Counted from the first letter of the stretch, positions 2,327 through 62,275 are shown. The stretch is DNA of 64,000 bases from Bacteroidota bacterium (GCA_018816945.1 JAHIVC010000030.1:13053-77052), one strand, 5' to 3'. The notes: generated from the sequence alone by a model not told the origin. Made by a program: numbers and translations.

Positions 2327-2399
2327 GCTTGTGATTTTATTGGACTTAACACAGTACTAACAATAAATGTGAAACCAATTATTAAAGATCTCTGAATCT

Positions 2400-3455: not shown

Positions 3456-3466
3456 ATTTAAATGAT

Positions 3467-4648
3467 TTATGATATTAAATCGTGGAAATTATATGCCATT
3501 TTTAGAGCATTGAATTTTTGGATATGTTCTTTTGCTTTATATGCCATTTTAGAATATTTTGTGGGATTATTATAGAAATCAATAATGGCCTCACAAATCA
3601 TATCTGGAGATTCTGGTGAAATTATTCTGGCGATGTCAGAATTATAATACTCAGGAATAGCTCCAACATTAGTAATAATAGTAGGAATCCCTATACTCAT
3701 CGCTTCAGCAATTGTATAGTTAAACGCTTCAAAATCTTTTGTCAACATTAATAAGACATCAAAGCAATTTATTATTTCATCCGATTTGTTTTCAATAAAT
3801 CCAGTAAAAATAACCCGATCTTGCAAATCATATTTTTTAACCAGAGACTTAAGTCTAAAAATCTCTTTCTTATTACCTCCGCCAACAATTAAGACTTTAA
3901 ATTTTATCTTTATTTCTTTCGGTAAACGGGATAGGGCAATGATTATATCTTCCTGCCCTTTGTACCTTTCGACTCTGCTAATAATTCCAAGAATAAACTC
4001 ATCCTTTGTTATGTTATATCTTTCTCTTAAATTAATATCAGCAAGCCCTAAACCGTTTATTAAATTAATGCCGTTGGGTATTACACGTATCGGATTTATC
4101 ATGGTATTGAAATGTCTTCTTTCCACCAGGGTGGTTCTTGTAGCCAAAGAAACAGTTACCAAATCAGTGGCACATTTTTGTAATCCAATAATTTTAATAG
4201 AGTCCAACAATATAAATATTGGAATTCTCGGCATCGCTGCATGATGGATCAGCAAAACACGTTTAGGGATTTTTAAAAAAGTTGAGCTAAAAATAATTGT
4301 AGTACAGCTCCTGGCACCAGGAAATCCACCATTATCAGATATTAAGACATCGAATTCCCCATGAATTTTTAATAAAAAAACCCCTCTTATAAACTCATAG
4401 AAAAAAATGAGCCAAGCAAAAAAGAAAGAAAATAAATAAAATCTGTCCCAATTAAATCGTTTATATTGAACCAACTTTAAGTTTTGAATTCTTTTTAAAT
4501 ACACAATGTTTTTTTTAACCCCATCATTATCATGATTGTAAAAAAGAATAAATTGGTCCTCTTTATCTGGCCAGTTTTGGAGTAAACATAATAGATGAGT
4601 GTCAACACCGCCATGTTCTTTAGAATCTAAATATATTGCAATTTTCAT
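3467..4648 (-). CDS. GT-B fold glycosyltransferase (family 4-like)
   Basis: C-terminal EAFNYTIAEAMSIGIPTIITNVGAIPEY (E-x7-E type motif); one N-proximal hydrophobic segment. Confidence 0.8.
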   Translation of the reverse strand: MKIAIYLDSKEHGGVDTHLLCLLQNWPDKEDQFILFYNHDNDGVKKNIVYLKRIQNLKLVQYKRFNWDRFYLFSFFFAWLIFFYEFIRGVFLLKIHGEFDVLISDNGGFPGARSCTTIIFSSTFLKIPKRVLLIHHAAMPRIPIFILLDSIKIIGLQKCATDLVTVSLATRTTLVERRHFNTMINPIRVIPNGINLINGLGLADINLRERYNITKDEFILGIISRVERYKGQEDIIIALSRLPKEIKIKFKVLIVGGGNKKEIFRLKSLVKKYDLQDRVIFTGFIENKSDEIINCFDVLLMLTKDFEAFNYTIAEAMSIGIPTIITNVGAIPEYYNSDIARIISPESPDMICEAIIDFYNNPTKYSKMAYKAKEHIQKFNALKMAYNFHDLIS

Positions 4649-4652
4649 AAGA

Positions 4653-5696
4653 TTATTTTCTAAATATTGTATTAAATAACAAAAACTTAAATCGTTTTTT
4701 ATATCTCGTAGTTATGGAGTTATTATCAGAAAACCATCCAAAAAGACGACTTTTAATTTGAAAGAAGTTTCCTGTTAAAGAAATTAAATAACCCAATTTC
4801 TCAAAAAAAACATTGTTAAAAAGAAAAACTCTTATAGAACCTAACTTCGTGTATTTATAAATACAATCCTTTATTGTTTTTTTTTCTTCTGAGCTCAAAT
4901 TCGAATCCGGATGCAATGCAAATTCCAAAGCCAAATCAAATTGTCCATAGGCGCACAAAATCAATACAATTTTCCAAATCTTTGTATGCTTAATTTGATC
5001 TTCTAATTTTTTATTATAAAAATGATCAATAGAAATGATAAAAAATGTGTCTGCGAACATTATTTGACCTCGGGTTGAGTTGGATATAGGTAAGTTTTTC
5101 TGTTTTGCATAATAATTACATACATCTATTAATACAAAGCCATTTTCATACATTAGGTTATAAATTTCCGGAAAAAAATGTTCCCCCTTATACATCTCAT
5201 TGTATTCAACTTCAATCTCAAAAAACAAACTATCAGAAATAAATTCATTGCCCATTCCTATTAATACCTGAAAAGCCAATCCTTGAACATCAATTTTTAC
5301 AATGTCAGGTAAAATATTATTGGTAACTAATATTTTCTTTAAGGGAATCGTTTGAATTTTTATTTGCTTTTCGACTTCCCACCTCTCAGATAAATAGAAT
5401 TTTGAAAGAAACTCATTGTTGGGACAAAGGATTGAAGAACATCCTGGCTCATTTGTTAAATATAAGCTAGACTCACCTTCAATATCAGATATGGCAATTG
5501 GGAAGTAGGTAATATTTTTAGTAGTGTTTTTATTTAATAAGGCACACTCTTCTTTATCTGGCTCAAAACCATAATAGATTATAAATTCGCTATCAACTCC
5601 ATCCCAAGGTGGGTTTACACCCCATCTAGCACCAATATCAATCAGCGTGATTTTTTCACTTTTAGGGAATGGCAATGATTTTAGTAATTTTTTCAT
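4653..5696 (-). CDS. FkbM-family methyltransferase
   Basis: LIDIGARWG and IVKIDVQGLAFQVL resemble the FkbM family signature (IDIGAxxG ... KIDvEG). Confidence 0.65.
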   Translation of the reverse strand: MKKLLKSLPFPKSEKITLIDIGARWGVNPPWDGVDSEFIIYYGFEPDKEECALLNKNTTKNITYFPIAISDIEGESSLYLTNEPGCSSILCPNNEFLSKFYLSERWEVEKQIKIQTIPLKKILVTNNILPDIVKIDVQGLAFQVLIGMGNEFISDSLFFEIEVEYNEMYKGEHFFPEIYNLMYENGFVLIDVCNYYAKQKNLPISNSTRGQIMFADTFFIISIDHFYNKKLEDQIKHTKIWKIVLILCAYGQFDLALEFALHPDSNLSSEEKKTIKDCIYKYTKLGSIRVFLFNNVFFEKLGYLISLTGNFFQIKSRLFGWFSDNNSITTRYKKRFKFLLFNTIFRK

Positions 5697-5749
5697 CTAG
5701 CACCTTAAAAATTTTGGAATGTACTATTTTAAAGATATTAACTTAATAA

Positions 5750-7591
5750 TTATTTTTTTGCTTGTTCAATAAGGAAATCTACAATTCGCTCACCTGATTT
5801 ACCGTCTATTTGACCAATATACTTATTGCCATATTTTTCTAAAAAATTGGTTAAAAAACCTGTTAATTCAGAGGCGTCATTAATATTGCGAAGAACTATA
5901 TCCAATAGCTCTTCACCTTTGCTAAGCCTTATAACCTCGTCCCAGTTTAATCCAGAATATGGTAAACATAATGAACCCTCTATTAAATTTGGTTCAAAGA
6001 ATATTGTTGGAATTCCGGCTGCCTGGGCTTCAAAAAAACAAGATGAGACATTACAAACCAACAAATCCATAGTACCAATAATTTCAGAGAAAGGGATTGA
6101 AAAGAAGCTATTGAATTTTAGGCTATTTTCTTTAACTCCCACAAATTCAAATATGTATTTGAAATATTCAGCGGATTCATTGTGAGGTCTAAAATAAACT
6201 TCAATACCTTTCTTAGCTAATTGTGGGAATAAGGGGATGATTTCTGCTAAATATTTTTCGCGAAATGCAAAACGATCCATGCGGGCAAAATGGTTATCTT
6301 CAAATGAGAGAAACAATACCCTATGAATTTTTTTAATCTCCTTTTTGGAAGTTTTGAAATAAGGATCGATACAAGGAGAACCAGTAACGCAATGAATGTC
6401 ATTTTTATTGTAGGGATCATATGATCCTGCTAAAAAACGGATATCATAATCAGGTATTTGTGCTATTGAGCTACTCGCACGAAAACCCTGAATTCCATGA
6501 TCAACAAAAGCATATAAAATATCATTTCTTTTGCAGATATCCTTTCTAAGTTGTGCATTTTCACCTTCAGACTCAATGTCTATCATTATTTTAATTTTAT
6601 TTTTAATTAATGCCCATTCTAATTTATTACGTGATAACAGCAAATTAGGAATCTCATTACTTGTTAGTTGTATAGCAACACGCTGATAGAAAGGAGAATA
6701 GTCAATACCATGATAGCAATATGAATTGTTTGATTTGTTTTTAATTCTTGCACTTAAGGCAGTTAAAAATTGATCATCAAATTTAGAAAGAGGAGTCTTG
6801 GTCGTTTCAAGATTTATAAAAGACGTGTGAAAATGATTAATCAATTTTTTTACATACAGATTGGGTATAAATAGGTGAGCCTTTTGATTTTCAATTAGTG
6901 ATATTAGGTTTGGATAATTATTAATAAAGATTCTAGTTTTGCCACGATGTCGTAAAATATTTATTTTATTGATGGTATATTCTAAAAAGGTTATCAAAAT
7001 TTTTCGAATTAATTGTTGGATTATTCTTTTTACAGAAGTTTTTGATTTTATTTGTAATTTTTGATTTGCAATTATCCCAGAGGGAATAACCTGATTGCAA
7101 GGAATAAAGGTTAAGGTAATATCTAGCTGTTTGCAAACCAATTCTGCAAGTTCAACTTTGCTAAAGATTCGTTCCACATCATTACCATTCTTGTAAAAAG
7201 TGTTTTCATTATCTGAAAAGTCACAAAATACATGTTCCGGTTTGAATTGAGATACCGCCCAGCGTATAACCTCTCCGTATTTAACCAAGATATTTAATAA
7301 ATAACTTTTATTAATCAAGATACGTGATATCTCCCCAAAAGAAAAACCATTATACTGTGAAATATCACCTTCGGGTTTATTATACCAATAAGAAGTAAAC
7401 TCATCTGTAATTTCTTGTAGATTTGAGAAATCTTTACCTGAAAATAGATCATCAATGAAAAAGACTTCTTTACATTGCTCGCTCTTACTCAAAGATAAGT
7501 ATGGGAGATAATTAAAACAAATAACAACATCATTGTTGTGTAGTAGCTTAGCTATAACACTTTTATCGTTCTCTATTAGAAAAACATTCAT
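5750..7591 (-). CDS. hypothetical 613-aa protein with GT-B-like C-terminal lobe (possible polymerising glycosyl- or phospho-transferase)
   Basis: Long intact ORF in operon register. C-terminal LLVCNVSSCFFEAQAAGIPTIFFEP resembles the nucleotide-sugar-binding lobe of TagF/KpsC-type enzymes. No firm family recognised. Confidence 0.4.
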   Translation of the reverse strand: MNVFLIENDKSVIAKLLHNNDVVICFNYLPYLSLSKSEQCKEVFFIDDLFSGKDFSNLQEITDEFTSYWYNKPEGDISQYNGFSFGEISRILINKSYLLNILVKYGEVIRWAVSQFKPEHVFCDFSDNENTFYKNGNDVERIFSKVELAELVCKQLDITLTFIPCNQVIPSGIIANQKLQIKSKTSVKRIIQQLIRKILITFLEYTINKINILRHRGKTRIFINNYPNLISLIENQKAHLFIPNLYVKKLINHFHTSFINLETTKTPLSKFDDQFLTALSARIKNKSNNSYCYHGIDYSPFYQRVAIQLTSNEIPNLLLSRNKLEWALIKNKIKIMIDIESEGENAQLRKDICKRNDILYAFVDHGIQGFRASSSIAQIPDYDIRFLAGSYDPYNKNDIHCVTGSPCIDPYFKTSKKEIKKIHRVLFLSFEDNHFARMDRFAFREKYLAEIIPLFPQLAKKGIEVYFRPHNESAEYFKYIFEFVGVKENSLKFNSFFSIPFSEIIGTMDLLVCNVSSCFFEAQAAGIPTIFFEPNLIEGSLCLPYSGLNWDEVIRLSKGEELLDIVLRNINDASELTGFLTNFLEKYGNKYIGQIDGKSGERIVDFLIEQAKK

Positions 7592-7680
7592 TAAACTTAA
7601 GCGCTGAAATTCATTAAGAATAACTTATTGTTAATTTGTTAAATAATAACTGGAAAGTAGAGATTTTTTGTTCTTTCCTC

Positions 7681-9036
7681 TCATTTTATTTGTTCACTAC
7701 CTTCTGGTAGTATCTTAATCCGAATTAATTCCTCAATGAAATCTAATAAAATATAATCATCCCATTTTCTAGAAATGAATTGTACACCGAAAGGCATGTT
7801 TTCCGGACAACGAAATTTTGGAGCCGAAACTGCAGGAATGTGTGCCATTGTCCATATAAGTGATGGATCTGAAAGCTCTAAACTACCCCTTTCAGGTGCT
7901 GAGCTCGAAGTTGAAAGAGAAATTCCAACATCAAAAGGGGTTAGTAATTGATCTACCTCAGCAATTATTCTCTGTTGTTGGGAAAGAGCATGTTTGAAAG
8001 TGTCTAACGAAATCTCCTTTCCTCTCTCAATCATTTCATACATAATAGGCGAAATCTCAGTGGCTCCTTGATTAATCTCATTTTGAAAATAATATGATAA
8101 TGATTTGGAATAAATTATTTCATGTATAAAGTGTGTTTCTGATAGACTGGATGGCCAGTTAATCTCTGTTACATTTATGTCGTGTTTGCTATCAAGTTGG
8201 TTGACAAAGTTTTGTAGCGATAATTTAGCATAATCTTTTGCTGAATCCCAAGTGTGAGTTTTAATTAATGCAACTTCCCAATGTTCCTTTCTCTTGTTTT
8301 CAGCGAGTTTTTTATCAATATTTTGAAATACAAACGGATAATTAGGACCTTTGACTCGTAATTGATTATATATAGGCCGAATGCTCATGCCATTAGCAGA
8401 CAGAAAGCCTACTGTATCTAGGGTATCCGTAGTTTTTAGAATTCCCGTTCTTGGTATTGTGCCAAAAGAGGGTTTAAACCCCCAGATTCCACAAAAACTT
8501 GCAGGTCGCATAATCGATCCTGCTGTTTGGGTACCCAGCGCAAAAGGTACCATTCCGCAAGCAACTGCTGCAGCTGATCCACTTGATGATGTTCCGGGTG
8601 TTTTTGAATTATTATGTGGATTAAGTGTCTGGTTTAATTGATGAACCGCAAACTCAGCAGTCACAGTTTTACCAGCCACGATACCTCCACTATTACAAAT
8701 CGAATCAACAACTCTGGCATTGTTGCCAGGAGTAAATCCTTTCCATAAAACCGAACCCATCTGTGTTGGATACTCACGGGTATTGAAAATATCTTTAACT
8801 CCAAATGGAATTCCTTCAAGTTCGAGAGCATGACCACGACGTTTATAAATTGAAGCGGCAATTTCACTGGCTTGAATAAGCCTGTCGGGGTCGAATACCT
8901 CCCATGCTAAGCATTTTTTCTCATGGATAGAGAAAGCATCAATTGTTTCATTTATCAACTCAGTATGAGAGAGACTATGATCCTTGATTTTATCAACGAG
9001 CTCTGAAATTGAGTAATTAAGGAAAAGTGAATTCAT
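7681..9036 (-). CDS. amidase-signature (GatA-like) amidohydrolase
   Basis: GIPFGVKDIF plus the Gly/Ser-rich signature GTSSSGSAAAVACGMVPFALGTQTAGSIMRPASFCG. ATGA overlap (9033-9036) with the upstream amidotransferase. Confidence 0.85.
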   Translation of the reverse strand: MNSLFLNYSISELVDKIKDHSLSHTELINETIDAFSIHEKKCLAWEVFDPDRLIQASEIAASIYKRRGHALELEGIPFGVKDIFNTREYPTQMGSVLWKGFTPGNNARVVDSICNSGGIVAGKTVTAEFAVHQLNQTLNPHNNSKTPGTSSSGSAAAVACGMVPFALGTQTAGSIMRPASFCGIWGFKPSFGTIPRTGILKTTDTLDTVGFLSANGMSIRPIYNQLRVKGPNYPFVFQNIDKKLAENKRKEHWEVALIKTHTWDSAKDYAKLSLQNFVNQLDSKHDINVTEINWPSSLSETHFIHEIIYSKSLSYYFQNEINQGATEISPIMYEMIERGKEISLDTFKHALSQQQRIIAEVDQLLTPFDVGISLSTSSSAPERGSLELSDPSLIWTMAHIPAVSAPKFRCPENMPFGVQFISRKWDDYILLDFIEELIRIKILPEGSEQIK

Positions 9037-35071: not shown

Positions 35072-36274
35072 TTATTGAAGCCAATTTTGGTTGTTACGAA
35101 GAAAGTATGCACCGAAGCTGGATCTGATTTCTCCGTGAAGGGGTCGCCCATTGTAACTGGCGACTGCCTTTGAGGGAAATATCTCCCAGAAACGGTGTTG
35201 AAGTTTTTCATCATCTTCCTCAGGTTTCCACGAGCCATCCAAACGCATAACCATTTCGATGACTACATCGCGAATCTCTTCCGGGGTATTCTCGATTAGC
35301 TTGATTCTATTTAATTCATAATCAGAAGTATTATTGAGAAAGCCACCACAAGCAAAGATTTCATTTAGTGTCAATTCCCGATTCTCATCTATAGCATAAT
35401 AGTGCTTTGTGATGGCAAGGTATTGACTGCTATATGTGGATATAACTCCAATTGGTACCATGTTTACATATACAACAGGTCTTCGGAATATTTGAGGAAT
35501 TGCATCGAAACCCGTACCGACTGAAATACAAAAATGACACTTCGCTCCAAGATAAATGTCCATAAAATCACTTCTCATTCCATTGGAAGCATAATCAATG
35601 ATCATTGAATCCAGAGACTGCATAGCTTCTTCAACTTTAGCACCCATTCTAATGACATAATACCCTTGTGAAGTCAGCTCTTCTGCAGCCAAAATATAAT
35701 TTTGAATATTACTATTCCGATAATCATTCTTAAAATCAGTACTGCATTCTGTCGAAAGATATTTTCCGTCCCTAACAATCATACAAACAAAAGGGTTCCC
35801 CCTTGGAATACCCAATTCCTGTAATTCTTTTTCACCCCTAATTAATTCTGACGTTGTAAATGAGATCTGAGCCGGATATTTATCATAAAGATTTAGTATG
35901 TCTCTGTCGAGATTCATTGTAGTTCCAACAAAAGAATGCAGGAATCCAATATTCCTTATTAAATAATCAAGAGGCCGTAAAAAGAAGGGTGGGAAGATAA
36001 TTATCTTTCTCCTCCACATTTTAGCCAGTTGTTTATTGCATGCTGGTCTGGCAAAGTAAAAAAGAGACAATTCCTTTCTGTGTTGCTCTTTTTTCTCACA
36101 GATATGAAGCTCGATATCTGCAGCAAAGTGGCCAATTCTGTTTGACCTCATCAAATAGATACGTGTTCTGATAAAAGGCCTTATAAGAAGTATAATAACC
36201 AGCCAGATAAGAGATAACGGCAATGACAACAATAAATGAGGGTATGCCCTGAATATCTCGTAATAACGTTTCAT
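35072..36274 (-). CDS. hypothetical membrane-anchored protein; candidate glycosyltransferase
   Basis: 400 aa with an N-terminal hydrophobic segment (LLLSLPLSLIWLVIILLI). Sits directly after neuB. No catalytic motif recognised. Confidence 0.4.
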   Translation of the reverse strand: MKRYYEIFRAYPHLLLSLPLSLIWLVIILLIRPFIRTRIYLMRSNRIGHFAADIELHICEKKEQHRKELSLFYFARPACNKQLAKMWRRKIIIFPPFFLRPLDYLIRNIGFLHSFVGTTMNLDRDILNLYDKYPAQISFTTSELIRGEKELQELGIPRGNPFVCMIVRDGKYLSTECSTDFKNDYRNSNIQNYILAAEELTSQGYYVIRMGAKVEEAMQSLDSMIIDYASNGMRSDFMDIYLGAKCHFCISVGTGFDAIPQIFRRPVVYVNMVPIGVISTYSSQYLAITKHYYAIDENRELTLNEIFACGGFLNNTSDYELNRIKLIENTPEEIRDVVIEMVMRLDGSWKPEEDDEKLQHRFWEIFPSKAVASYNGRPLHGEIRSSFGAYFLRNNQNWLQ

Positions 36275-36280
36275 TTGTTA

Positions 36281-36563
36281 ATAATTTGTTTTTTAATGGC
36301 CAAATGGAATGCCCCTGAGGTTATTATCATTTCGATTGGTGATTCGCAAATCATTGGCATTTCATGCGTATATAATTTGTTTTTAAAGGTCACATGGAAT
36401 AGCCATGACGAAAATATTCATTCCGGTTGGTGATTTTCTGATCATGGCTATTTCATGCGTTTATAATTTGATTTTAATTGCCGCATGGAATACCCACATA
36501 ATCATTTTCGGTTGGTGTTAAATCCTTCTCGTGGGTATTTCATTATAAATTTAGTTTTTAATT
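36281..36563. repeat. three tandem ~91-bp units (plus a truncated fourth head), each a long imperfect hairpin
   Basis: Unit heads ATAATTTG at 36281, 36372 and 36463. Stems at 36304-36313/36356-36365, 36393-36408/36442-36457 and 36485-36497/36531-36543. Conserved loop core TCATT(T/C)CG(G/A)TTGGTG. The array fills the whole gap between two genes. Confidence 0.9.
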
Positions 36564-37418
36564 ACCAAGTCCAAAAATCTCATCCAAAGCTGTCCATGCG
36601 TCCGTTGGCAATATTTCCAGTTCGGCTAACCGACTACAATCGAGGGTGGTGTTTTTTGCAGCGTTGCTGATACCAGCATCCCTGAAAGAAATTGGCTGGA
36701 TCAGTTCTTCGTCAAAATTTAACCTGTGCGCAAGGTGTATGGCGAGATCGGAATAGGTCATATCCTGGTATGAAGAGAGTTGAAAAATTCCCGGAACCTG
36801 TTTTTCAGCAATTTTTTGTATTGCTGAGAACGCCAATGAAATTGGAACGGGTGATATAACCATATCGGAAAATGGATGAATTACATTTCCCGCCTTCAAC
36901 TCTTTAATCCAGCCTTTTAACAGTGGCATTTCAGGAGTTATAATTTTGCTAAAACGTATAATTGCTACTTTGTTACCTATTTTCAGGAGTTGTTCCTCCG
37001 CTTCAGCCTTCTGGCGACCATATTCGGTTTGAGGTCTGACTGGATCGTTCACTTTTGCAAAAGGGGTATTCCCATTGAATACCGCATTACTGGATAGAAA
37101 AATGACAAAGGCTCCGGCTTCAACCATCTGTTCAGCAAATGCAACAGTCCCTTCAACATTTACACGCCGACTGAATTCAGGATCATTCGCACATTGTTCC
37201 TGAGATGTTATTGCAGCACAGAAAACTACTGTTTTTATTGAAGCGGGAAGTTTTGGCCAGGATTTACTGTCGAGAGTCAAATCGAGAAAAAGGCATTTTT
37301 CATTTACATTGGCAGAAAAACAAGTAGTGCTTAATGCATTATTTCCATCAGCCCCGAATGACGCTACCAAACGACTACCTATTGTTGAGTCACCTCCAAT
37401 AATTAGCACTTCATTCAT
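36558..37418 (-). CDS. SDR-fold NAD(P)-binding protein (RmlD/epimerase-like)
   Basis: MNEVLIIGGDSTIGSRL Rossmann N-terminus after moving the start to ATG 37418 (8-nt overlap with the upstream methyltransferase stop). Confidence 0.65.
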   Translation of the reverse strand: MNEVLIIGGDSTIGSRLVASFGADGNNALSTTCFSANVNEKCLFLDLTLDSKSWPKLPASIKTVVFCAAITSQEQCANDPEFSRRVNVEGTVAFAEQMVEAGAFVIFLSSNAVFNGNTPFAKVNDPVRPQTEYGRQKAEAEEQLLKIGNKVAIIRFSKIITPEMPLLKGWIKELKAGNVIHPFSDMVISPVPISLAFSAIQKIAEKQVPGIFQLSSYQDMTYSDLAIHLAHRLNFDEELIQPISFRDAGISNAAKNTTLDCSRLAELEILPTDAWTALDEIFGLGN

Positions 37419-54350: not shown

Positions 54351-54745
54351 ACTTGAACAGACCTTGAATAAAACCTGAACAACTCCGGTTTTATTCAGAC
54401 TTGCTGCAGTGTTGATCTGAACTTGTATTGGAGTTGGTTAATAGACGATTTATTTTGAAGTAATTAATGTTTAAATTCCATCCTCGTTGGCAGACCAAAT
54501 TCCAAACAAATTCCAATTCTGAATTTTCAAATTTCACCCTTCGACTCACTTCGACTCACTTCGACTTCGCTCAGTGCGAGTAGCTCAGTGCGAGTAGCTC
54601 AGCGCGTGCTCAGTGGAACCAGGCTCAGTGTGACGAGTCCACAGATTTCACGGATTTTCACGAATTGTTTGCTGTTCGCGCTCAAAGGTTCAGAGGTTCA
54701 AAGGTTCAAAAGTTCAGAGGTTCAAAGGTTCAAAAGTTCAGAGGA
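54351..54745. repeat. patchwork of different short tandem word repeats downstream of wzz
   Basis: TTGAAC/CTGAAC words (54353-54380, 54417-54422). AAATTCCA x3 (54473-54515). CTTCGACTCA x2.8 (54539-54566). GCTCAGTG-type words x5 (54569-54637). ATTT(T)CACG x2 (~54645-54663). 8-mers A(G/A)GTTCA(A/G) x7 with a 24-nt super-period (54686-54741). Confidence 0.9.
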
Positions 54746-54766
54746 TTTATCTTTTAACTTTCGCCT

Positions 54767-55915
54767 TTATACTTTCAACTTTTCACTTCCCTCTTCCATC
54801 CAACGTTTCTTGATATTGACTAAAAAATGCTTTCCAAACACCCATCCAATACCCACTACACCACCAAAGAATATCCAAGTTATCAGGATTTTCGTTCTTT
54901 TTGGCTTAAAACTTTCTCTCGGGACACTAATAGGTTGGATGATTATAAATACAGGCGTTTCTCCTTTTACCTGTATTTGTGCACTTTCGAGTTGTTTTGC
55001 TAATTCAGTAAACACCGCAAAAATAATATGATATTCACTTTGCAGGCGCTCCAGTTCGGTTTTATCAAGCTCGGTAACGATATTTTTATTTTTATCCCGA
55101 AAACGTGCTAATTTCTCCTGAATTTGTTTGAATTCCTGTTCCTTTTCCTGATATCTCTCCATGACAAACTCAAGCTGAGTCTGTGCTTTTTTTATTTTAA
55201 ACTCAGTAATTTTTTCCTGTAACAGTTTCTGGGCATTTTGTCCTAATTGAGCTGCGGCTTTAGCCTCAGGCATAATTGCTATTAAAGTTATAACTCCCTG
55301 TTTTTGATCAATCTTCAAACTAATGGATGAGCTCAATAAATTGATTATTCTTCTTTCTTCAGCGGTTAATATCACGATACTTTTATCCTGTTCAATTGTA
55401 GCTTCAACTGAAGTAGATTTCCTTTTTAAAGCACTTAATATTGTGCCTGGAAGTCCAATGGTGAACTTTTTTACAAAATTTAACACATTGAACTTAGTAT
55501 ATTGTGGGTCGGTGTAAAAGTTGTAAATACTAATCTGGTTGCTATATCCATCAAAATTTACCTCAACTTTCATTAATTCTTTCAGGAAAGGGATGCTTTT
55601 TACAATTTCGGGATAAACTGTAGGACTTAATTCAGCTCCGGTATTCATATCCATATTAAAACCTGCCATTGCAGCGAGGGATGAAAGCCCTCCCAAATTA
55701 TTATTTCCTGAATTTATCTGAGGAACCATGATGCTGCTTGCGGAATACTGTTTTGGCGTGAAAATGGCAATAAATAATCCAATGATTGTAAAAATGATGA
55801 TCGTTATTATGATCATTCTTCGTTTATTCCAAATGATTTTGGCCAGCGCAATGAGGTCGATTTCGTCGCTGTGGGCGTCGAGTGACTGTGTGGTTGTATT
55901 GGGAGTTTCAGTCAT
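54767..55915 (-). CDS. Wzz-family polysaccharide chain-length determinant protein
   Basis: N-terminal EIDLIALAKIIWNKRRMIIITIIIFTIIGLFIAIFTPKQY (Wzz motif plus TM1), coiled-coil middle, C-terminal TM (ILITWIFFGGVVGIGWVFG). Confidence 0.8.
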   Translation of the reverse strand: MTETPNTTTQSLDAHSDEIDLIALAKIIWNKRRMIIITIIIFTIIGLFIAIFTPKQYSASSIMVPQINSGNNNLGGLSSLAAMAGFNMDMNTGAELSPTVYPEIVKSIPFLKELMKVEVNFDGYSNQISIYNFYTDPQYTKFNVLNFVKKFTIGLPGTILSALKRKSTSVEATIEQDKSIVILTAEERRIINLLSSSISLKIDQKQGVITLIAIMPEAKAAAQLGQNAQKLLQEKITEFKIKKAQTQLEFVMERYQEKEQEFKQIQEKLARFRDKNKNIVTELDKTELERLQSEYHIIFAVFTELAKQLESAQIQVKGETPVFIIIQPISVPRESFKPKRTKILITWIFFGGVVGIGWVFGKHFLVNIKKRWMEEGSEKLKV

Positions 55916-55935
55916 AGAAATATATTTTTGTTATA

Positions 55936-56196
55936 GTGACGGGTGAATTGGTGACAGGTGAATTGGTGACGGGTGACGGGTGACAGGTGACGGGTGAATT
56001 GGTGACGAGTGACGAGTGACGGGTGACAGGTTTTTTTGAAGTTTTTTGTCACTAGTCACGTGTAACTTGTCACTTTTTTTGGTGGTGACGGGTGAGTTGG
56101 TGACAGGTGACAGGTGACAGGTGAATTGGTGACGGGTGACGGGTGAATTGGTGACGAGTGACGAGTGACTGAGTGACGTGTCACTTTCTCTGTCAC
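55936..56196. repeat. two modules of GTGAC-word arrays (7/8-nt period), each followed by T-rich GTCAC words
   Basis: Array A, 55936-56030: 10 heptamers GTGAC(G/A)(G/A) plus 3 octamers GTGAATTG. Its tail has GTCAC at 56048, 56055 and 56069. Array B, 56085-56177. Its tail has GTCAC at 56180 and 56192. Confidence 0.95.
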
Positions 56197-56563: not shown

Positions 56564-56746
56564 GTGACTAGTTAAATGGTGACGGGTGAATTGGTGACGG
56601 GTGACAGGTGACGGGTGACAGGTGAATTGGTGACGGGTGAATTGGTGACGGGTGACAGGTGACGGGTGACAGGTGACGGGTGACGGGTGACGCGTCACTT
56701 GTCACTTTTCAGTCACTTGTCACTTTCTTTGTCACTTTTTAGTCAC
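56564..56746. repeat. third GTGAC-word array (16 words) followed by six GTCAC words
   Basis: Array at 56579-56691; junction palindrome GTGACGCGTCAC at 56687-56698; GTCAC at 56694, 56701, 56712, 56719, 56731 and 56742. Ends 3 nt before the wza-like stop codon. Confidence 0.95.
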
Positions 56747-56749
56747 TGA

Positions 56750-59443
56750 TTACAGTTGTTTAGCTAACACAAAAATAGTCAGAGCAGTAGTTACAGCGGT
56801 CAAAGTGGTTCCCCAAACCTCACTCCACTTTGTTTTTTCTCTGGTGCTTTCTCTTTTTTCTTTGGGCGGTTTCATTTTAAGACTTATTAATGATCCTGTT
56901 TCTACTTCGGGATAGTTCCTGAAAAGTAATAGTGATTTTTTTGTGCTTTTTACCCGGCCATTTTTTAAGGAAACGGTGACACTTTTTTTATCTGCCCGGT
57001 CGACAAATCCACCTGCATAATTATTAATATACCAGCGTGCCGATTTTTCACCCTGAAACACAAGGTTAAAGGATACTGCTGCCTCATTGAATGTATTATC
57101 TGCCAACCTGGTACCGATAGGTCTTATGGATACGGTATTTTCTCTCCTTTCAATATTGATCACATCCCCTTCAAATAAAATCGGATCCTGCTTAAGATTT
57201 CCATGATAGATGAGTGCCTTTTCAATATCCATAATGATATTTCCCCGATTGTTGTAGGTTCTGAAAAGTCTGCTTCCTCTTGCATCAGCTGCTCCCAGCA
57301 ATCCTCCGGCACGATTAATTAATTCACTCATTTGAACCTGCTCAGATTCGAGTACATATAAACCGGGATAGTTTACTTCACCGGCAATTTCAACCGTTCT
57401 GCCCAATGTGAATGCAGGGGTTAGCCTTACAACTACCTGATCATATGGTTGCAGGTTAAAGTTAGCCGGTTTGATGACCTGGTAATTGTTATCGATCTCA
57501 AGGGTGATTAACTCCAGCCGGGTTTGCTCAGTTGGAGAAAGTATAGCGCGGAAAACTTCAATGCGATTTAAAGCTGCTCCAATATTAAATCCTCCGGCAG
57601 CGGTTATCATATCAGAAATAGTAAGACTGGGATCAAATGTAAATTCTTGCGGCTGTTTTACAGCTCCAAATATTCGAACTTCTCCAATATTGGAATAGAT
57701 ACTATTATCATACACATTTAATCGATCTCCGGGTTTCAAAACTAAATTGTCTGAATCTTCCAATCGGATTCGAATATATTCAGTTCTTCCCGGATTGAAT
57801 AAATCTTGCCTGAAAATATATGCGACCGGATATGCGCTTGTTTTAAGACCGCCTGCAAGTTCAATTGCCTGCTTAACTGTTAATCGATAGTTTAAAGCAA
57901 AAGTTTGCTCATATGGAGCTCTCACATGGCCATTAACCGAAATAGTTGCCACATCTCTGTATGTTGATTGGTTTGGAACCCGGATGCGGTCACGAGCCAT
58001 TAATGTAAAATCCTTCCCGGAACCCTTCATGTCTTCCCAAGGGATTGTTAATACTTCAACCGTTTCATCTGTCTGTATCCGTTCTATAAGAATCAGATCG
58101 GTTTTAGCATTACTGTTTGGTTGAGCGTTAGCCAGCAGTTTAGCCAAAGAAGGATTGGCCAGAAAATCATAGTTACCGGGATAAAATACACTACCTGATA
58201 TTTCAACATATTGTTCAATTGGTTTCTGGATTGATTTAATGCGAATAATATCACCATTCACTAGTGGAACATTTAATTTACCATTTAAAACTTCGTTGAG
58301 ATTATATTCCTGCAATCTGATCTCCCCATTTATATATCGCTGAATTTGAACAAAATCAGGATAGGCATCTACATTTAAACCTCCGGCATACTGAATCAGA
58401 TCATTCAGGTTTTCCTTTGCAAGTAATTCATATCGCATAGCCCTTTTAACCGCACCTTCAATGCTAACCAAATTTTGAACAACAGGTACAAAAATGATAT
58501 CATTTTGCTGCAAATCAAATTTGTATTGCATGGTCGGATCTTTCATAAAAGCATATAAATCGATTATAGTTCGATTATTGCCACGGATGTGTTGAATGGT
58601 ACGCACACTCCCGATTTCTGTTGGTCCACCGGCAGCACTTAATGCATTTATTGCAGAGTTTAGGGCAGAAAGGGTAAATCCACCGGTTATTTTTGATTCT
58701 CCAAAAATATTAACCATAATGGTTCTTGCAGTGGAGATTGTCAACGCAAATTGATCAGATCGAAAGGTATAAGCCTTTGCTAATCTTTCAAACATTAATT
58801 CTTTGGCCTGTTTCAAGGATAAGCCCTGCAGGAAAATCTTGGGCATTCCTGATGGCTGTATATAACCATCATCATTAATTTCAAGTTGTAAATCAGTTTG
58901 AGAAGATCCAAAAATACTAATCCGGATTTTATCTCCTGCCCCCAGAATATAGGTGTCAGGAGCAGTTGCACCATCCGTAGTTCTAAAAATATCCAAGCTT
59001 TGATCGGTAAACAAGGAGTGACCATAAATTTTAACAGGGGCTTTCTCTTCGTTTGCAGCAGCCTGAACTACTCTTTGTGCAGCTTCAGCGGTGGCTTCCT
59101 GCACTGTAGTTTCCGGTTCAGTTATTACCGGTTCAACAATTACTGTTGGGGTTTTTACTGTTGTCTTTTTCTCTGCTTCCATTGCATCCAATATGGCAGT
59201 TACTCTTGCCTGATATTGTGGAAGTTCCGCAGGAGGAATATTTTCAAGATCAATACCTTCCTGAAGCAATCGTGTGCGAACCTCTGCTTCTGTAAGTCCT
59301 CGGCGTTGCAATTCAGCATTTACCTGTGCCATTATTACAGGAGGCGGATTTTGAGCATAACTTATTTGAGCACTTGACAATAGAAAAAAAGCAGATAATA
59401 AAAGTCCTAAAAGTGAAGACTTTGTTTTTGTGAATGACTTCAT
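56750..59443 (-). CDS. Wza-like outer-membrane polysaccharide export protein with multiple SLBB domains
   Basis: Signal peptide (LLGLLLSAFFLLSSAQISYA); Poly_export motif YILGAGDKIRISIFG...DDGYIQPSGMPKIFLQGLSLKQAKE; repeated SLBB-like segments; C-terminal TM. Confidence 0.85.
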   Translation of the reverse strand: MKSFTKTKSSLLGLLLSAFFLLSSAQISYAQNPPPVIMAQVNAELQRRGLTEAEVRTRLLQEGIDLENIPPAELPQYQARVTAILDAMEAEKKTTVKTPTVIVEPVITEPETTVQEATAEAAQRVVQAAANEEKAPVKIYGHSLFTDQSLDIFRTTDGATAPDTYILGAGDKIRISIFGSSQTDLQLEINDDGYIQPSGMPKIFLQGLSLKQAKELMFERLAKAYTFRSDQFALTISTARTIMVNIFGESKITGGFTLSALNSAINALSAAGGPTEIGSVRTIQHIRGNNRTIIDLYAFMKDPTMQYKFDLQQNDIIFVPVVQNLVSIEGAVKRAMRYELLAKENLNDLIQYAGGLNVDAYPDFVQIQRYINGEIRLQEYNLNEVLNGKLNVPLVNGDIIRIKSIQKPIEQYVEISGSVFYPGNYDFLANPSLAKLLANAQPNSNAKTDLILIERIQTDETVEVLTIPWEDMKGSGKDFTLMARDRIRVPNQSTYRDVATISVNGHVRAPYEQTFALNYRLTVKQAIELAGGLKTSAYPVAYIFRQDLFNPGRTEYIRIRLEDSDNLVLKPGDRLNVYDNSIYSNIGEVRIFGAVKQPQEFTFDPSLTISDMITAAGGFNIGAALNRIEVFRAILSPTEQTRLELITLEIDNNYQVIKPANFNLQPYDQVVVRLTPAFTLGRTVEIAGEVNYPGLYVLESEQVQMSELINRAGGLLGAADARGSRLFRTYNNRGNIIMDIEKALIYHGNLKQDPILFEGDVINIERRENTVSIRPIGTRLADNTFNEAAVSFNLVFQGEKSARWYINNYAGGFVDRADKKSVTVSLKNGRVKSTKKSLLLFRNYPEVETGSLISLKMKPPKEKRESTREKTKWSEVWGTTLTAVTTALTIFVLAKQL

Positions 59444-59650: not shown

Positions 59651-60169
59651 TTACACGGGTAATTTAGATTTCTTTGTTACTGATGCTGCATGTTCAAGAA
59701 TCAATGAATAACCTATATCCTTAATCCGGATGATAATTTTGTTTTTGCCATTATTGTCTTTTACGACTTCTCCTTCATATCCCTTTAAAGGCCCTGATTC
59801 TATTATTATCATCTCACCTTTCAAAAACCTTTCGCCGCTGTAATAATGAGGTGCCTTAAATTCTACCATTTTTTTCATGGCGTCGATCTGCCATTCAGGA
59901 ATCGCGACTGCTTTACCTTCAAATGTTACATAACGCACAGCACCAGTTATGTTAACGATGTCATAATACTCTTTTTCACTGATATTCACAAACACATAGG
60001 ATCGAATCATTGGGACTTCTACTTTTTTCTTTCGATCACTCCATTGCTTTATCTTTGTTTCAAGTGGTAAATAAGCATTAAACCCTCTTTTAATAATTTC
60101 GGCATAAACTTTCTTTTCCTGCATTGATTTGGTATAAAGAGCGTACCAGTGATAGGAAAGTTGTTTCAT
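59651..60169 (-). CDS. UpxY-family (NusG-like) transcription antiterminator
   Basis: WYALYTKSMQEKKVYAEI (NGN domain) and KOW-like GEMIIIESGPLKGYEGEVV. Start set at ATG 60169 (MKQLSYHWY); the track start 60256 is a TTG. Confidence 0.85.
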   Translation of the reverse strand: MKQLSYHWYALYTKSMQEKKVYAEIIKRGFNAYLPLETKIKQWSDRKKKVEVPMIRSYVFVNISEKEYYDIVNITGAVRYVTFEGKAVAIPEWQIDAMKKMVEFKAPHYYSGERFLKGEMIIIESGPLKGYEGEVVKDNNGKNKIIIRIKDIGYSLILEHAASVTKKSKLPV

Positions 60170-60459
60170 GGGAAAAGAGTTTTTTTCTTCATCGTTATGT
60201 GACTTAGCAATTGATGGTAAAGAAGAATTGGAATTGCTGCTCAACGGTCGATTCAATATTTTTGTGTTTACTTGTATTTTATTTTTTTATAATCAATGTA
60301 ATGTGTTGTGGAATAAAGTTTTAGAGATCAATTAAAATACATGATCAATTGTAATATTAATATCTGAATGTCATAGCTTCGCCCCTATAGTCACATTTTA
60401 AAAAATCTCAATTCTCCTTCAAATACTGTATTTCAGCCCCTAATTTAGCATTTTAATCT

Positions 60460-61893: not shown

Positions 61894-61910
61894 TTTTCAT
61901 CTCCACTGCG

Positions 61911-62275
61911 TGGAGCTGCAGGGATTCGAACCCTGGTCCAAACAAGCAGTCAAAACGCTTTCTACATGCTTATCCTTTAGTTGATTGTCGGGAAATAACC
62001 GATGAAAGGCACACCTATTATAACCTTAGTCTTTATATTTCGCCCGTGCACCAAGACCTTGCAAAAGCTAGCTCAACATTTATGATGCTTCGGTCGGGAC
62101 ACCGTTAAGCGAGGTTTCCCGGGAAGCAGTAAGCGGCTTAATCTCTAGACTAAGCGGCTATCGCGTAATTATTGTCGCCAGTTAATGGCTGTGAGAATTA
62201 GGATTAACGAGGCATATTCACAACCCTCGGCATGCTTACATCTCCACTTCCTTGCTGTCAAAACCGGTCAGCCCC
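61911..62275 (-). ncRNA. ssrA: tmRNA (transfer-messenger RNA)
   Basis: 5' GGGGCTGACCGGTTTTGACAGC; 3' GGTTCGAATCCCTGCAGCTCCA (T-arm plus acceptor, G3:U70 pair; CCA not encoded). Tag frame 62179-62150: GGC GAC AAT AAT TAC GCG ATA GCC GCT TAG = GDNNYAIAA*. A -7-like TAAATTTG box sits at 62339-62332. Confidence 0.9.

What the first reader, a model, noticed from the sequence alone, without database searches (positions are those of the whole stretch)
36281..36563. A whole intergenic gap is a 3 x ~91-bp tandem array of one hairpin, maintained by compensatory base changes
Units start at 36281, 36372 and 36463 with the head ATAATTTG(T/A)TTTT. A truncated fourth head, ATAAATTTAGTTTTTAATT, overlaps the stop codon at 36558-36560. 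The array begins 7 nt from the start codon at 36274, so the 283-nt gap consists of nothing else. Each unit folds into a long stem: 36304-36313/36356-36365 (continuing TGA/TCA at 36316-18/36351-53), 36393-36408/36442-36457 (16 bp) and 36485-36497/36531-36543 (13 bp). The proximal stem ATGGAAT/ATTTCAT is identical in all units. The distal stem differs yet stays paired: GCC/GGC, AGCCATGA/TCATGGCT and ACCCAC/GTGGGT. Three aligned columns change as pairs (G-C/A-T/A-T, C-G/G-C/C-G, T-A/T-A/C-G). The ~30-nt loop keeps a conserved core, TCATT(T/C)CG(G/A)TTGGTG. The one non-Watson-Crick position in every stem is G:T on the plus strand, which would be G:U in a plus-strand RNA but C:A in the operon mRNA. 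This hints that the folded species may be an antisense transcript or DNA. Each unit also has a one-off match to the Bacteroidota -7 box (TATAATTTG vs TAnnTTTG) before the stem and a T-rich run after it. I do not recognise it as a named RNA family, a MITE or a CRISPR. It sits exactly at the junction between two biosynthetic modules of the operon.
Basis: partly seen in the sequence, partly recalled or inferred. Interest (0 to 1): 0.8.

Follow-up and report, generated by a model that had tools for sequence, protein, structure and literature searches.

The report
Start-codon-targeting hairpin repeats, three stacked
The "array" is three different copies of a small non-coding hairpin repeat, apparently undescribed and found across Bacteroidota, that sits exactly on ATGAAA start codons, rebuilds the start codon and brings its own leader; here all three copies sit in front of one capsule gene.

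Summary
In detail: three head-to-tail units of 91, 91 and 87 nt (36275-36543), each a long hairpin with a conserved loop.

It is not a private, locally evolved array.
About 115 of the 120 genome hits are real, and all of those are Bacteroidota.
- Each window unit is 86-90% identical to copies in other species but only 70-77% identical to its neighbours.
- A close relative (94% identical downstream protein) has the same two genes with only a 14-nt spacer. The 269-nt array is therefore an insertion (or a precise loss) bounded by the direct repeat ATGAAA at the start codon.

Family-wide, the element lies on the gene's strand: AUGAAAU-hairpin-AUUCCAU, then about 29 nt of A-rich leader, then the AUG. 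In about half of the copies that AUG opens a long ORF, and the genes are unrelated in function.

A second helix pairs AUUCCAU-NNG with CNN-AUGAA, so it contains the start codon. It covaries strongly in two independent samples.

Best reading: a non-autonomous mobile repeat that targets start codons and is co-transcribed with its host gene. The mobilising enzyme and the strand that folds remain unknown. It has no Rfam match and is not a REP, a MITE with terminal inverted repeats, an attC site or a CRISPR.

The parts
36269..36274 (-). ATGAAA: start codon plus Lys codon of the downstream TIGR04372 glycosyltransferase gene (35072-36274). It is the target-type copy 'c' of the direct repeat that bounds the insertion.
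   Evidence: ORF and NCBIfam TIGR04372 hit, E 5e-70. The same ATGAAACGTTATTAC is present once in the empty site L122.
36275..36365 (-). Leader 36275-36303, hairpin 36304-36365. Belongs to the ACCCCTGAGG...GGGT-type sub-family.
   Evidence: Nearest relatives are L094, L009 and L049 at 84-87% identity, against 77% to unit B.
36366..36456 (-). Unit B (91 nt). Leader 36366-36393, hairpin 36394-36456 (16-bp stem 36393-36408/36442-36457). Belongs to the AGCCATGA-type sub-family.
   Evidence: Fold z -4.4 on plus and -6.2 on minus. Best covariance-model hit in the window, 100.5 bits. Nearest relatives L102 and L062 at 88-90% identity.
36457..36543 (-). Unit C (87 nt). Leader 36457-36484, hairpin 36485-36543. 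Belongs to the ACCCAC/GTGGGT-type sub-family. Its ATGAAAT (36543-36537 on minus) is the distal copy 'a' of the direct repeat.
   Evidence: Nearest relatives L082, L005 and L052 at 88-89% identity.
36544..36557 (-). Native 14-nt spacer/leader (AAACTAAATTTATA on minus).
   Evidence: Present as AAACTAAATTTAAA between the same two genes in the array-free relative L122.
36558..37418 (-). Upstream RmlD-like NAD-dependent reductase/epimerase gene (stop at 36558-36560; probable start at the ATG at 37418).
   Evidence: Pfam RmlD_sub_bind 1.7e-26. The ORF list begins at a GTG at 37499, but the domain starts at residue 30.
36268..36310 (.). Helix P2 of unit A. On plus, TTTCAT-TTG (36269-36277) pairs with CAA-ATGGAA (36301-36309). 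On the mRNA, AUUCCAU-UUG pairs with CAA-AUGAA, the real start codon.
   Evidence: Predicted as a 6-bp helix, CAUUUG/CAAAUG, in the minimum-free-energy and centroid folds of the sense RNA. Family-wide covariation.
36333..36341 (.). Conserved loop core CGATTGGTG of unit A. The equivalent cores are at 36424-36432 (unit B) and 36509-36517 (unit C).
   Evidence: The core was part of the search patterns, so its family-wide constancy is partly by construction. A divergent sub-family carries a different loop.

Best explanation
The 269 nt at 36275-36543 are three stacked members, from three different sub-families, of a roughly 90-nt non-coding dispersed repeat that is widespread in Bacteroidota and behaves as a non-autonomous mobile element.

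Read on the gene strand, one element is AUGAAAU, a variable stem, the loop CACCAAYCGRAAAUGA, the variable stem again, AUUCCAU-NNG, about 20 nt of A-rich leader, then CNN. It is followed directly by the host gene's AUGAA(A).

Shown:
- The element is multi-copy and has sub-families shared between species.
- Its borders are sharp and fall at TTCAT/ATGAA on both sides.
- It is present or absent between close relatives exactly at the start codon.
- It always lies on the strand of the gene whose start codon it abuts.
- Two helices that share the AUUCCAU segment are kept by compensatory changes: the main hairpin P1, and a second helix P2 that contains the start codon.

Inferred:
- The element lands on ATGAA(A). 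In plus-strand terms it inserts 3' of TTCAT and itself ends in TTTCAT. A new copy can therefore land behind a resident one and build head-to-tail stacks of unlike units.
- Because it regenerates the start codon and supplies an A-rich, Shine-Dalgarno-free leader, insertion in front of a gene or inside a tight operon junction is tolerated.
- It is then co-transcribed. Here that would be within a roughly 60-kb capsule operon headed by a NusG/UpxY-like gene.
- In the mRNA it adds a stable hairpin plus a weak helix over the AUG, which may alter mRNA stability or translation.

The most likely mobilisation route is a hairpin-recognising enzyme acting in trans on single-stranded DNA (IS200/IS605 or REP-RAYT logic). 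No such enzyme was identified.
For: Family size and taxonomy:
About 115 hits are real, all in Bacteroidota (Prolixibacteraceae, Tangfeifania, Lentimicrobiaceae, Chitinophagaceae, Cytophagales, Weeksellaceae, Flavobacteriaceae). There are many copies per genome, and some sit in tandem at 88-91 nt spacing.
- The metagenome scan also hit its limit; the model finds 67 copies in 100 of those loci.

Sub-families: each window unit is closer to copies in other species than to its neighbours.

Empty site: L122 reads GTAATTAAAAACTAAATTTAAA|ATGAAACGTTATTAC. The window reads ...TTTATA|ATGAAAT...(269 nt)...AACAA|ATGAAACGTTATTAC.

Position relative to genes:
- TTCAT lies 27-30 nt from the hairpin foot in 88 of 98 copies.
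- The ATG at that spot opens an ORF of at least 100 aa (or one running off the contig) in 51 of 98 copies, many with a signal peptide from residue 1. For random ATGAAA sites the figure is 22%.
- 52 of 94 array ends abut long ORFs.
- 44 downstream proteins hit 72 Pfam families, none in more than 2 proteins.
- The upstream neighbour is co-directional in 70 of 93 cases, and 16 have their stop within -12 to +15 nt.

Covariation:
- P1 and P2 exceed all 500 shuffles, and pairing collapses from 89-92% to 30-50% when the partner is slid.
- The P2 pair next to the AUG shows all four Watson-Crick types: GC 40, CG 34, TA 17, AT 3. In the metagenome sample it is CG 21, GC 18, UA 11, AU 3.
- The three bases beside the hairpin foot pair with the right flank in only 30 of 114 copies.

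Precedent: TTCAT is the known insertion target/TAM of ISGst5, an IS200/IS605-family element (bioRxiv 10.1101/2023.03.14.532601).
Against: - No transposase or recombinase was found near any copy. The loci are 8-kb samples, so this was not a systematic test.
- There is only one filled/empty pair. A precise deletion between the ATGAAA repeats would look the same.
- The element has one long hairpin, not the two subterminal hairpins of IS200/IS605 ends, and no GTAG foot as in REPs.
- In the window the gene strand is the G-rich (leading) strand. Under the IS608 rule that would make the strand with the A.C mismatch the active one.
- Mismatch statistics do not identify the folding strand.
- About a quarter of single copies are preceded by a leader-like stretch without a hairpin. 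Simple target-site insertion does not predict this.
- Strong conservation of a helix that contains the start codon could instead mean selection for an RNA function.
Confidence: 0.65

Rival explanations
1. The element is primarily a cis-acting RNA module in the mRNA. The segment AUUCCAU-NNG pairs either with the upstream AUGAAAU (main hairpin closed, start codon free) or with CNN-AUGAA (start codon occluded). This would give a translational toggle, thermosensor or stabiliser for mRNAs without a Shine-Dalgarno sequence. It would have spread because it is useful.
For: - P2 covaries and contains the start codon.
- The spacing is fixed and the element is always in sense orientation.
- The sense-RNA fold of the window array keeps the upper stems and forms the 6-bp P2 over the real AUG.
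- Non-Watson-Crick cells in the P2 triplet lean towards G.U on the mRNA strand, 12 vs 4.
- Bacteroidota initiation depends on unstructured A-rich leaders (PMC6847099, seen; general knowledge).
Against: - There is no regulon: 72 Pfam families for 44 genes.
- About 45% of array ends are not in front of a long ORF.
- The array is absent from a close relative, and the gene there keeps its native leader.
- Stacks of unlike units have no obvious regulatory logic.
- The conserved A.C mismatch leaves only a 6-bp helix with a loop of about 23 nt in the RNA, which is marginal in energy (inference).
- There is no Rfam match.
Confidence: 0.2
2. Each unit is a small antisense RNA gene on the plus strand: a promoter-like TATAATTTG, then the hairpin, then a U-rich tail.
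For: - The fixed non-Watson-Crick position is G.T on plus in 65 of 66 copies, although a single transition would make it G-C.
- T-rich sequence follows the hairpin on plus.
Against: - TATAATTTG does not fit TAnnTTTG; the spacing is off by one (read directly from the sequence).
- The -33 position would fall in unrelated coding sequence.
- P2 needs the start codon of the opposite-strand gene, which a short transcript starting inside the unit would not contain.
- No promoter-like or terminator-like site is called in the array. The promoter scan used a sigma-70 consensus only.
- Other mismatches show no bias towards the plus strand.
Confidence: 0.05
3. It is a local tandem duplication of one hairpin that diverged in place, with the stems repaired by compensatory mutations (the literal reading of the finding's title).
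For: The units are head to tail with a 91-nt period and share the same foot and loop.
Against: - Each unit is 86-90% identical to copies in other species but only 70-77% identical to its neighbours.
- Hundreds of copies exist elsewhere.
- The whole array is missing from a close relative.
Confidence: 0.02
4. It is an atypical REP/REPIN family serviced by a RAYT (Y1 HUH) enzyme. Bacteroidetes are reported to have such enzymes (subclass 2.6).
For: - It is a multi-copy extragenic hairpin.
- A Bacteroidetes-specific RAYT subclass with 'atypical secondary structures' exists (PMC6006769).
Against: - The subclass 2.6 structures listed in that paper's supplement are 24-32-nt GC-rich hairpins with no similarity to this element.
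- There is no GT[AG]G foot.
- Units form direct stacks, not inverted pairs.
- The hairpin is 58-75 nt long.
Confidence: 0.08

Closest known systems
Neisseria REP2 repeats and Borrelia IR-A/IR-B (as summarised in PMC3184786)
   Same: Dispersed repeats that lie immediately upstream of genes, contain the translation-initiation region and the ATG, and carry internal inverted repeats predicted to form stem-loops.
   Different: Those repeats are said to include a promoter and a ribosome-binding site. Here no promoter is evident on the gene strand, and the leader is A-rich without a Shine-Dalgarno sequence. They occur in different phyla with no sequence relation. Stacks of unlike units, the shared-arm double helix and the start-codon direct repeat are not described for them.
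IS200/IS605-family ends and their non-autonomous derivatives (PATEs); ISGst5 with target TTCAT
   Same: No terminal inverted repeats. Insertion next to a specific pentanucleotide (TTCAT on plus), with the element ending in the same motif. Hairpin with a conserved non-Watson-Crick position. A foot-adjacent segment that pairs with the border sequence, similar to guide/cleavage-site pairing.
   Different: There is one long hairpin instead of two subterminal ones, and the pairing with the border is 9-10 bp. No TnpA was found. The strand rule could not be verified.
REP/BIME/REPIN elements of Proteobacteria
   Same: Extragenic hairpin repeats, often inside operons and co-transcribed, known to affect mRNA stability.
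   Different: No GTAG foot, a hairpin two to three times longer, head-to-tail rather than inverted clusters, and precise placement on start codons.
Mycobacterial interspersed repetitive units (MIRU)
   Same: Units of 40-100 bp in tandem inside intercistronic gaps of operons, oriented with the operon, with unit ends overlapping the neighbouring gene boundaries and a filled/empty polymorphism (PMC3184786).
   Different: MIRUs carry small in-frame ORFs and lack a long conserved hairpin. Here the mini-ORFs (2-13 codons) are not conserved. Different phylum.
Integron attC sites / cassette arrays
   Same: Head-to-tail stacks of unlike units, each with an imperfect hairpin that has conserved ends, a variable centre and a strand-specific mismatch.
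   Different: No GTTRRRY core, no attI or integrase context, no cassette ORFs, and dispersed over many start codons.

Membership tests
Rfam RNA families (all 4227) | Covariance-model match at or near the gathering score | tested here: not met
   The only window hit at gathering score is tmRNA at 61908-62275. In E-value mode over 36000-36800 the hits that overlap the array reach only 12-21 bits against gathering scores of 50-63.
REP/REPIN-RAYT | Short (about 20-40 nt) palindrome with a conserved 5' GT[AG]G foot | tested here: not met
   The hairpin is 58-75 nt, the foot is ATGGAAT, and there is no GTAG.
REP/REPIN-RAYT | Occurs as inverted pairs or clusters and flanks a RAYT gene | tested here: inconclusive
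   Clusters are direct head-to-tail stacks. No RAYT was seen in the 8-kb loci, but whole genomes were not available. The published Bacteroidetes subclass 2.6 hairpins are unrelated.
MITE | Terminal inverted repeats at the two element ends | tested here: not met
   The ends are nTGTwTATAATTTG... and ...ATTTCAT. The inverted repeats are internal or shared with the flank (a/b and b/c).
MITE | Target-site duplication flanking the insertion | tested here: inconclusive
   ATGAAA is present once in the empty site and on both sides of the filled site. This fits either a 6-bp duplication or an element that ends in its own target motif.
IS200/IS605-type non-autonomous element | Insertion 3' of a fixed 4-5-nt target, without terminal inverted repeats | tested here: met
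   T[TC]CAT lies at the left border at the expected distance in 98 of 114 genome copies and 35 of 40 metagenome copies. The empty site is cut exactly there.
IS200/IS605-type non-autonomous element | Subterminal hairpins at both ends and a cognate Y1 transposase | tested here: inconclusive
   There is one hairpin at one end. The other end forms helix P2 with the hairpin's 5' arm. The transposase is not testable with these tools.
Neisseria REP2-type 'promoter + RBS + ATG' repeat | Immediately upstream of genes and containing the initiation region and ATG | tested here: met
   An ATG lies at a fixed distance in 98 of 111 copies, and 51 of those open an ORF of at least 100 aa or one running off the contig.
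Neisseria REP2-type 'promoter + RBS + ATG' repeat | Carries a promoter for the downstream gene | tested here: not met
   There is no sigma-70-like site in the array and no TAnnTTTG on the gene strand (read from the sequence). Bacteroidota-specific promoter models were not available as a tool.
MIRU | Tandem intercistronic units with small ORFs that overlap the flanking genes' stop and start | tested here: not met
   The location and orientation fit. The unit-internal ORFs, however, are 2-13 codons long and variable.
Integron attC | R''/R' boxes with a GTTRRRY core, next to an integrase and attI | tested here: not met
   No such core is present in the units. The neighbours are sugar-nucleotide and glycosyltransferase genes.
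CRISPR | Short repeats separated by unique spacers | tested here: not met
   The units abut without spacers.
Intrinsic terminator | GC-rich stem followed directly by a T run | tested here: not met
   No terminator-like sites on either strand of 35900-36900.

The most novel reading that the evidence does not exclude
The element is a self-contained device that homes to start codons. Its middle segment (ATGGAAT on plus, AUUCCAU on the mRNA) would act as a built-in guide that pairs either with the element's own end or with the target ATGAA(A) of a gene. This would direct single-stranded insertion exactly onto start codons.

The one conserved asymmetric pair is G.T in plus-strand DNA and A.C in the mRNA. 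It would keep the DNA form foldable while preventing the transcript from locking the start codon.

Equivalently novel would be that Bacteroidota have domesticated it as a general portable module for initiating translation and toggling it on mRNAs without a Shine-Dalgarno sequence.
Probability: 0.2. Interest if true: 0.85.

Novelty: new variant of a known kind. Interest (0 to 1): 0.66.

Why it matters
Small hairpin repeats are well studied in Proteobacteria and Firmicutes but hardly at all in Bacteroidota. This family is phylum-wide and multi-copy, and I found it neither in Rfam nor in five full-text searches of the held literature.

Its behaviour is unusual in three ways. It sits exactly on start codons, replaces the native leader with its own, and stacks unlike copies in front of one gene.

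If it is mobile as inferred, it shows how a selfish element can insert inside operons and ahead of genes without killing them, in a phylum where translation starts without a Shine-Dalgarno sequence.

It also has practical consequences:
- It is a source of mis-called start codons and spurious mini-ORFs in annotation.
- It is a likely breakpoint for MAG assemblies.
- It is a possible source of strain-level expression differences in capsule and polysaccharide-utilisation operons.
- It could serve as a compact natural leader cassette for expression engineering in Bacteroidota.

Tried and rejected
- Rfam, at gathering score and in E-value mode: nothing relevant.
- Other copies in the window: none.
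- Viral contigs: 4 pattern hits, all chance matches with no complementary stem arms and no leader.
- Plasmid collection, blastn: no match.
- RAYT subclass 2.6 'atypical REPs' of Bacteroidetes: the published hairpins are unrelated.
- Search for an autonomous partner near hairpins with other flanks (L060, L083, L088, L089, L119), near the copy-rich Haoranjiania loci (L050, L054), and in the Weeksellaceae/Flavobacterium island. Only ordinary genes were found. IS91-like genes lie next to one copy in L081, which looks incidental.
- Strand assignment from mismatch types: not significant and contradictory between the two helices.
- Strand assignment from local GC skew: confounded by gene orientation.
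- Further empty sites by all-against-all comparison of flanks: none beyond L122.
- More distant homologues of the glycosyltransferase (P0004, P0005): other spacers, and neither filled nor informative. The P0004 spacer was read. For P0005 only the gene layout was inspected.
- Model R1 was built with a structure shifted by one column and was discarded. R2 was used instead.
- One preprint on genome-language-model mining of non-coding elements could not be opened.

Full report
**1. What is in the window**

Tandem Repeats Finder reports a 91-nt period at 36281-36496. The three units align with 80% mean column identity. Unit 2 is a 16-bp-plus hairpin far more stable than shuffled sequence on either strand (z -4.4 and -6.2). 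Units 1 and 3 are only modestly better than shuffles.

All genes in the window lie on the minus strand.
- The gap separates an RmlD-like reductase gene (36558-37418) from a TIGR04372-family glycosyltransferase gene (35072-36274).
- The wider setting is a capsule/exopolysaccharide locus of about 60 kb. It is headed by a NusG/UpxY-like gene (59651-60256), a Wza-like exporter gene (56750-59443) and a Wzz gene (54767-55915). These are followed by an ABC transporter gene and dozens of sugar-nucleotide, aminotransferase and NeuB-type genes.
- The plus strand has a GC skew of about -0.09, so the gene strand is the G-rich one.

Rfam gives nothing for the array, either at gathering score or in permissive mode. 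Neither nhmmer nor a covariance model finds another copy in the 64 kb. No sigma-70-like promoter or intrinsic-terminator-like site is called inside the array.

**2. It is a member of a large family**

The pattern ATGGAAT-N(12-35)-CGRTTGGTG-N(8-30)-ATTTCAT was scanned over one genome per prokaryotic species.
- Five hits are chance matches (Bacillus, Hydrogenophilaceae, Pseudobdellovibrionaceae and two others, with no hairpin).
- The other roughly 115 are all Bacteroidota: Prolixibacteraceae and other Marinilabiliales, Tangfeifania, Lentimicrobiaceae, Chitinophagaceae, Cytophagales, Weeksellaceae and Flavobacteriaceae.
- Several loci often come from one genome, and some pairs are spaced 88-91 nt apart.
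- The same scan of viral contigs gave four hits, all chance. Plasmids gave none.

**3. The anatomy, once many copies are compared**

Conservation extends beyond the hairpin, but only on one side. In plus-strand orientation a full element reads:

TTTCAT | nTG-T-wTATAATTTGTTTTTTAA-nGGy-CAn | ATGGAAT-stem-loop-stem-ATTTCAT

On the opposite strand, which is always the strand of the neighbouring gene, this reads: AUGAAAU-hairpin-AUUCCAU-NNG, then an A-rich leader, then CNN-AUGAA(A).

- The distance from the hairpin foot to that ATG is 27-30 nt in 88 of 98 copies.
- In 51 of 98 copies the ATG opens an ORF of at least 100 codons or one that runs off the contig. Many of these have an obvious signal peptide starting at residue 1. 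Of all ATGAAA sites in the same loci, 22% do so.
- After chaining tandem units, 52 of 94 array ends abut long ORFs.
- The 44 complete downstream proteins hit 72 different Pfam families, none in more than two proteins. There is no regulon.
- The upstream neighbour is co-directional in 70 of 93 cases. In 16 of those its stop codon lies within -12 to +15 nt of the element. Insertion into tight operon junctions, as in the window, is therefore common.
- In Haoranjiania flava, stacks of two or three units sit at successive gene junctions of one three-gene cluster whose sizes (1025, 557 and 379 aa) suggest a SusC/SusD-type locus. These proteins were not scanned.

**4. Two helices that share one arm**

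The main hairpin (P1) is supported by covariation in the three to six pairs above the invariant foot. All 500 shuffles fall below the observed score, and pairing drops from about 90% to 32-45% when the partner is slid.

A second helix, P2, came as a surprise.
- The three bases just before the gene's ATG are Watson-Crick complementary to the three bases just after AUUCCAU. This holds in 94 of 98 copies at each of the three positions.
- The pair next to the ATG uses all four Watson-Crick types: GC 40, CG 34, TA 17, AT 3.
- As a control, the same three bases pair with the flank on the other side of the hairpin in only 30 of 114 copies.
- Counted on alignments, P2 is 92% paired, against 30-49% when slid.
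- The result repeats on an independent metagenome sample: 89% paired; CG 21, GC 18, UA 11, AU 3.

P2 (AUUCCAU-NNG with CNN-AUGAA) contains the start codon. It uses the same AUUCCAU as the foot of P1, so the two are mutually exclusive over seven positions.

Folding the window's sense RNA gives the upper stems of the three hairpins plus a 6-bp P2 (CAUUUG/CAAAUG) over the real AUG.

**5. The fixed odd pair, and the strand question**

In both helices the one non-Watson-Crick position is G.T on the plus strand, which is A.C on the mRNA strand. My first pattern forced this, so I repeated the scan with the partner left free (T or C). Among model-confirmed copies the pair is G.U in 65 and G-C in 1. 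A divergent sub-family (ATGGAAC...GTTTCAT, with another loop) keeps the odd pair while the neighbouring pair covaries. The asymmetry is therefore conserved.

It does not settle which strand folds.
- Other single mismatches in the main stem are GT 19 vs AC 14.
- In the P2 triplet they lean the other way, AC 12 vs GT 4 on plus, which means G.U on the mRNA.
- Local GC skew is confounded by gene orientation.

**6. Evidence that it moves**

(a) Each window unit is 86-90% identical to copies in other species and only 70-77% identical to its array neighbours. The stack is therefore made of three sub-family members and is not a diverged duplication.

(b) The closest homologue of the glycosyltransferase (94% identity) lies on a contig with the same RmlD-like gene upstream, but the spacer is only 14 nt.
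- Empty site: GTAATTAAAAACTAAATTTAAA|ATGAAACGTTATTAC.
- Window: GTAATTAAAAACTAAATTTATA|ATGAAAT...269 nt...TTAACAA|ATGAAACGTTATTAC.

The array is thus an exact insertion (or exact loss) bounded by the direct repeat ATGAAA.

(c) The borders of conservation in all copies fall at TTCAT/ATGAA on both sides.

Because an element ends in the motif next to which it inserts, a new copy can land behind a resident one. This explains head-to-tail stacks of unlike units. An IS200/IS605-family element with exactly this target/TAM, TTCAT 5' of its left end, is known (ISGst5). That is a precedent, not proof.

**7. What I could not show**

- No transposase or recombinase was found near any copy. One copy in Flavobacterium macacae lies about 250 nt from IS91-like genes, at the edge of a nearly identical island shared by several Weeksellaceae. 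This looks incidental.
- There is only one filled/empty pair.
- About a quarter of single copies are preceded by a leader-like stretch with no hairpin. These may be remnants, or they may indicate an extended target preference.

**8. Comparison with known elements**

- The published 'atypical' REPs of the Bacteroidetes RAYT subclass 2.6 are short GC hairpins and are unrelated.
- The element lacks the GTAG foot and inverted-pair arrangement of REPs, the terminal inverted repeats of MITEs, the core site of attC, and the spacers of CRISPR.
- The closest mechanistic analogue is the single-stranded, hairpin-guided, target-specific insertion of IS200/IS605 and REP-RAYT systems.

**9. Verdict**

It is partly wrong: this is not a private array, and the antisense idea is not supported.

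The best-supported reading is a non-autonomous mobile repeat of Bacteroidota that targets start codons. It is co-transcribed with its host genes, and any effect on expression is still to be measured.

I rate it a new variant of a known kind (small dispersed hairpin repeats), with fairly high interest because of the start-codon specificity, the self-supplied leader and the shared-arm double helix.

Noticed in passing
window 55935-56178, 56577-56692 (with 56046-56075 and 56694-56747): Dense fields of the heptamers GGTGACG/GGTGACA/GGTGAAT (13-16 copies each). Each field is followed by runs of the inverse motif GTCAC(TT). They lie between the Wzz gene and the Wza-like exporter gene of the capsule locus. 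They could be a protein-binding array or a phase-variation region. They are unrelated to the hairpin family.
   Followed up: no
window 54539-54788: A cluster of short tandem repeats: CTTCGACTCA x2.8, GCTCAGTGCGAGTA x2.7, TCAAAGGT x7.9 (also called as a 24-nt period) and TTTAACT x6. It lies at and just downstream of the 3' end of the Wzz gene.
   Followed up: no
window 59651-60256 (-) and 1-53315: A NusG/UpxY-like gene heads a run of more than 45 co-directional genes with almost no gaps. This suggests a single very long operon dependent on antitermination. The array sits inside it.
   Followed up: partly
window 61908-62275 (-): tmRNA gene, Rfam RF00023, 156 bits.
   Followed up: no
L060 404-465, L083 6113-6174, L088 4019-4080, L089 5713-5774, L119 975-1036: A sub-group has the same hairpin foot and loop but, instead of the A-rich leader and ATG, a different conserved module of about 40 nt (TTGATTGAAAAAC..GTTAATACGAAAATT). 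In three of the five loci (L060, L089, L119) it lies about 70-200 nt upstream of an ordinary gene: a 900-aa secreted protein, a 510-aa protein and a 376-aa protein (function guessed from the N-terminus only, not scanned). In the other two no such gene was seen.
   Followed up: partly
L012 578-1002, L023 168-246, L016 7197-7298, L083 6020-6122, L092 2397-2499: A divergent sub-family with the foot ATGGAAC/GTTTCAT (the seventh pair covaries from T-A to C-G) and a different loop (..CCTCCTGTGTGTC..). It is often stacked together with standard units.
   Followed up: partly
L010, L055, L069, L081, L091 (Chryseobacterium, Kaistella, Moheibacter, Flavobacterium macacae, Weeksellaceae MAG): One element copy lies about 12 nt inside the edge of a block that is 97-100% identical across genera and includes a 109-aa ORF of unknown function. 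In L081 an integrase-like gene and IS91-like transposase genes sit about 250 nt away (identified by eye from the N-terminal sequence). This points to recent horizontal transfer of the block.
   Followed up: partly
L066 2665-3546 and L094 6625-7512: The same gene family (Pfam Acyl_transf_1, N-terminus MKAYVFPGQG, probably fabD) carries an element directly on its start codon in two different genomes. The two elements come from different sub-families. This means either recurrent insertion at the same gene or turnover of the element.
   Followed up: no
window 1-8000: GC content falls to 0.30, against 0.36-0.40 in the rest of the window. This may be a horizontally acquired distal part of the polysaccharide locus.
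   Followed up: no
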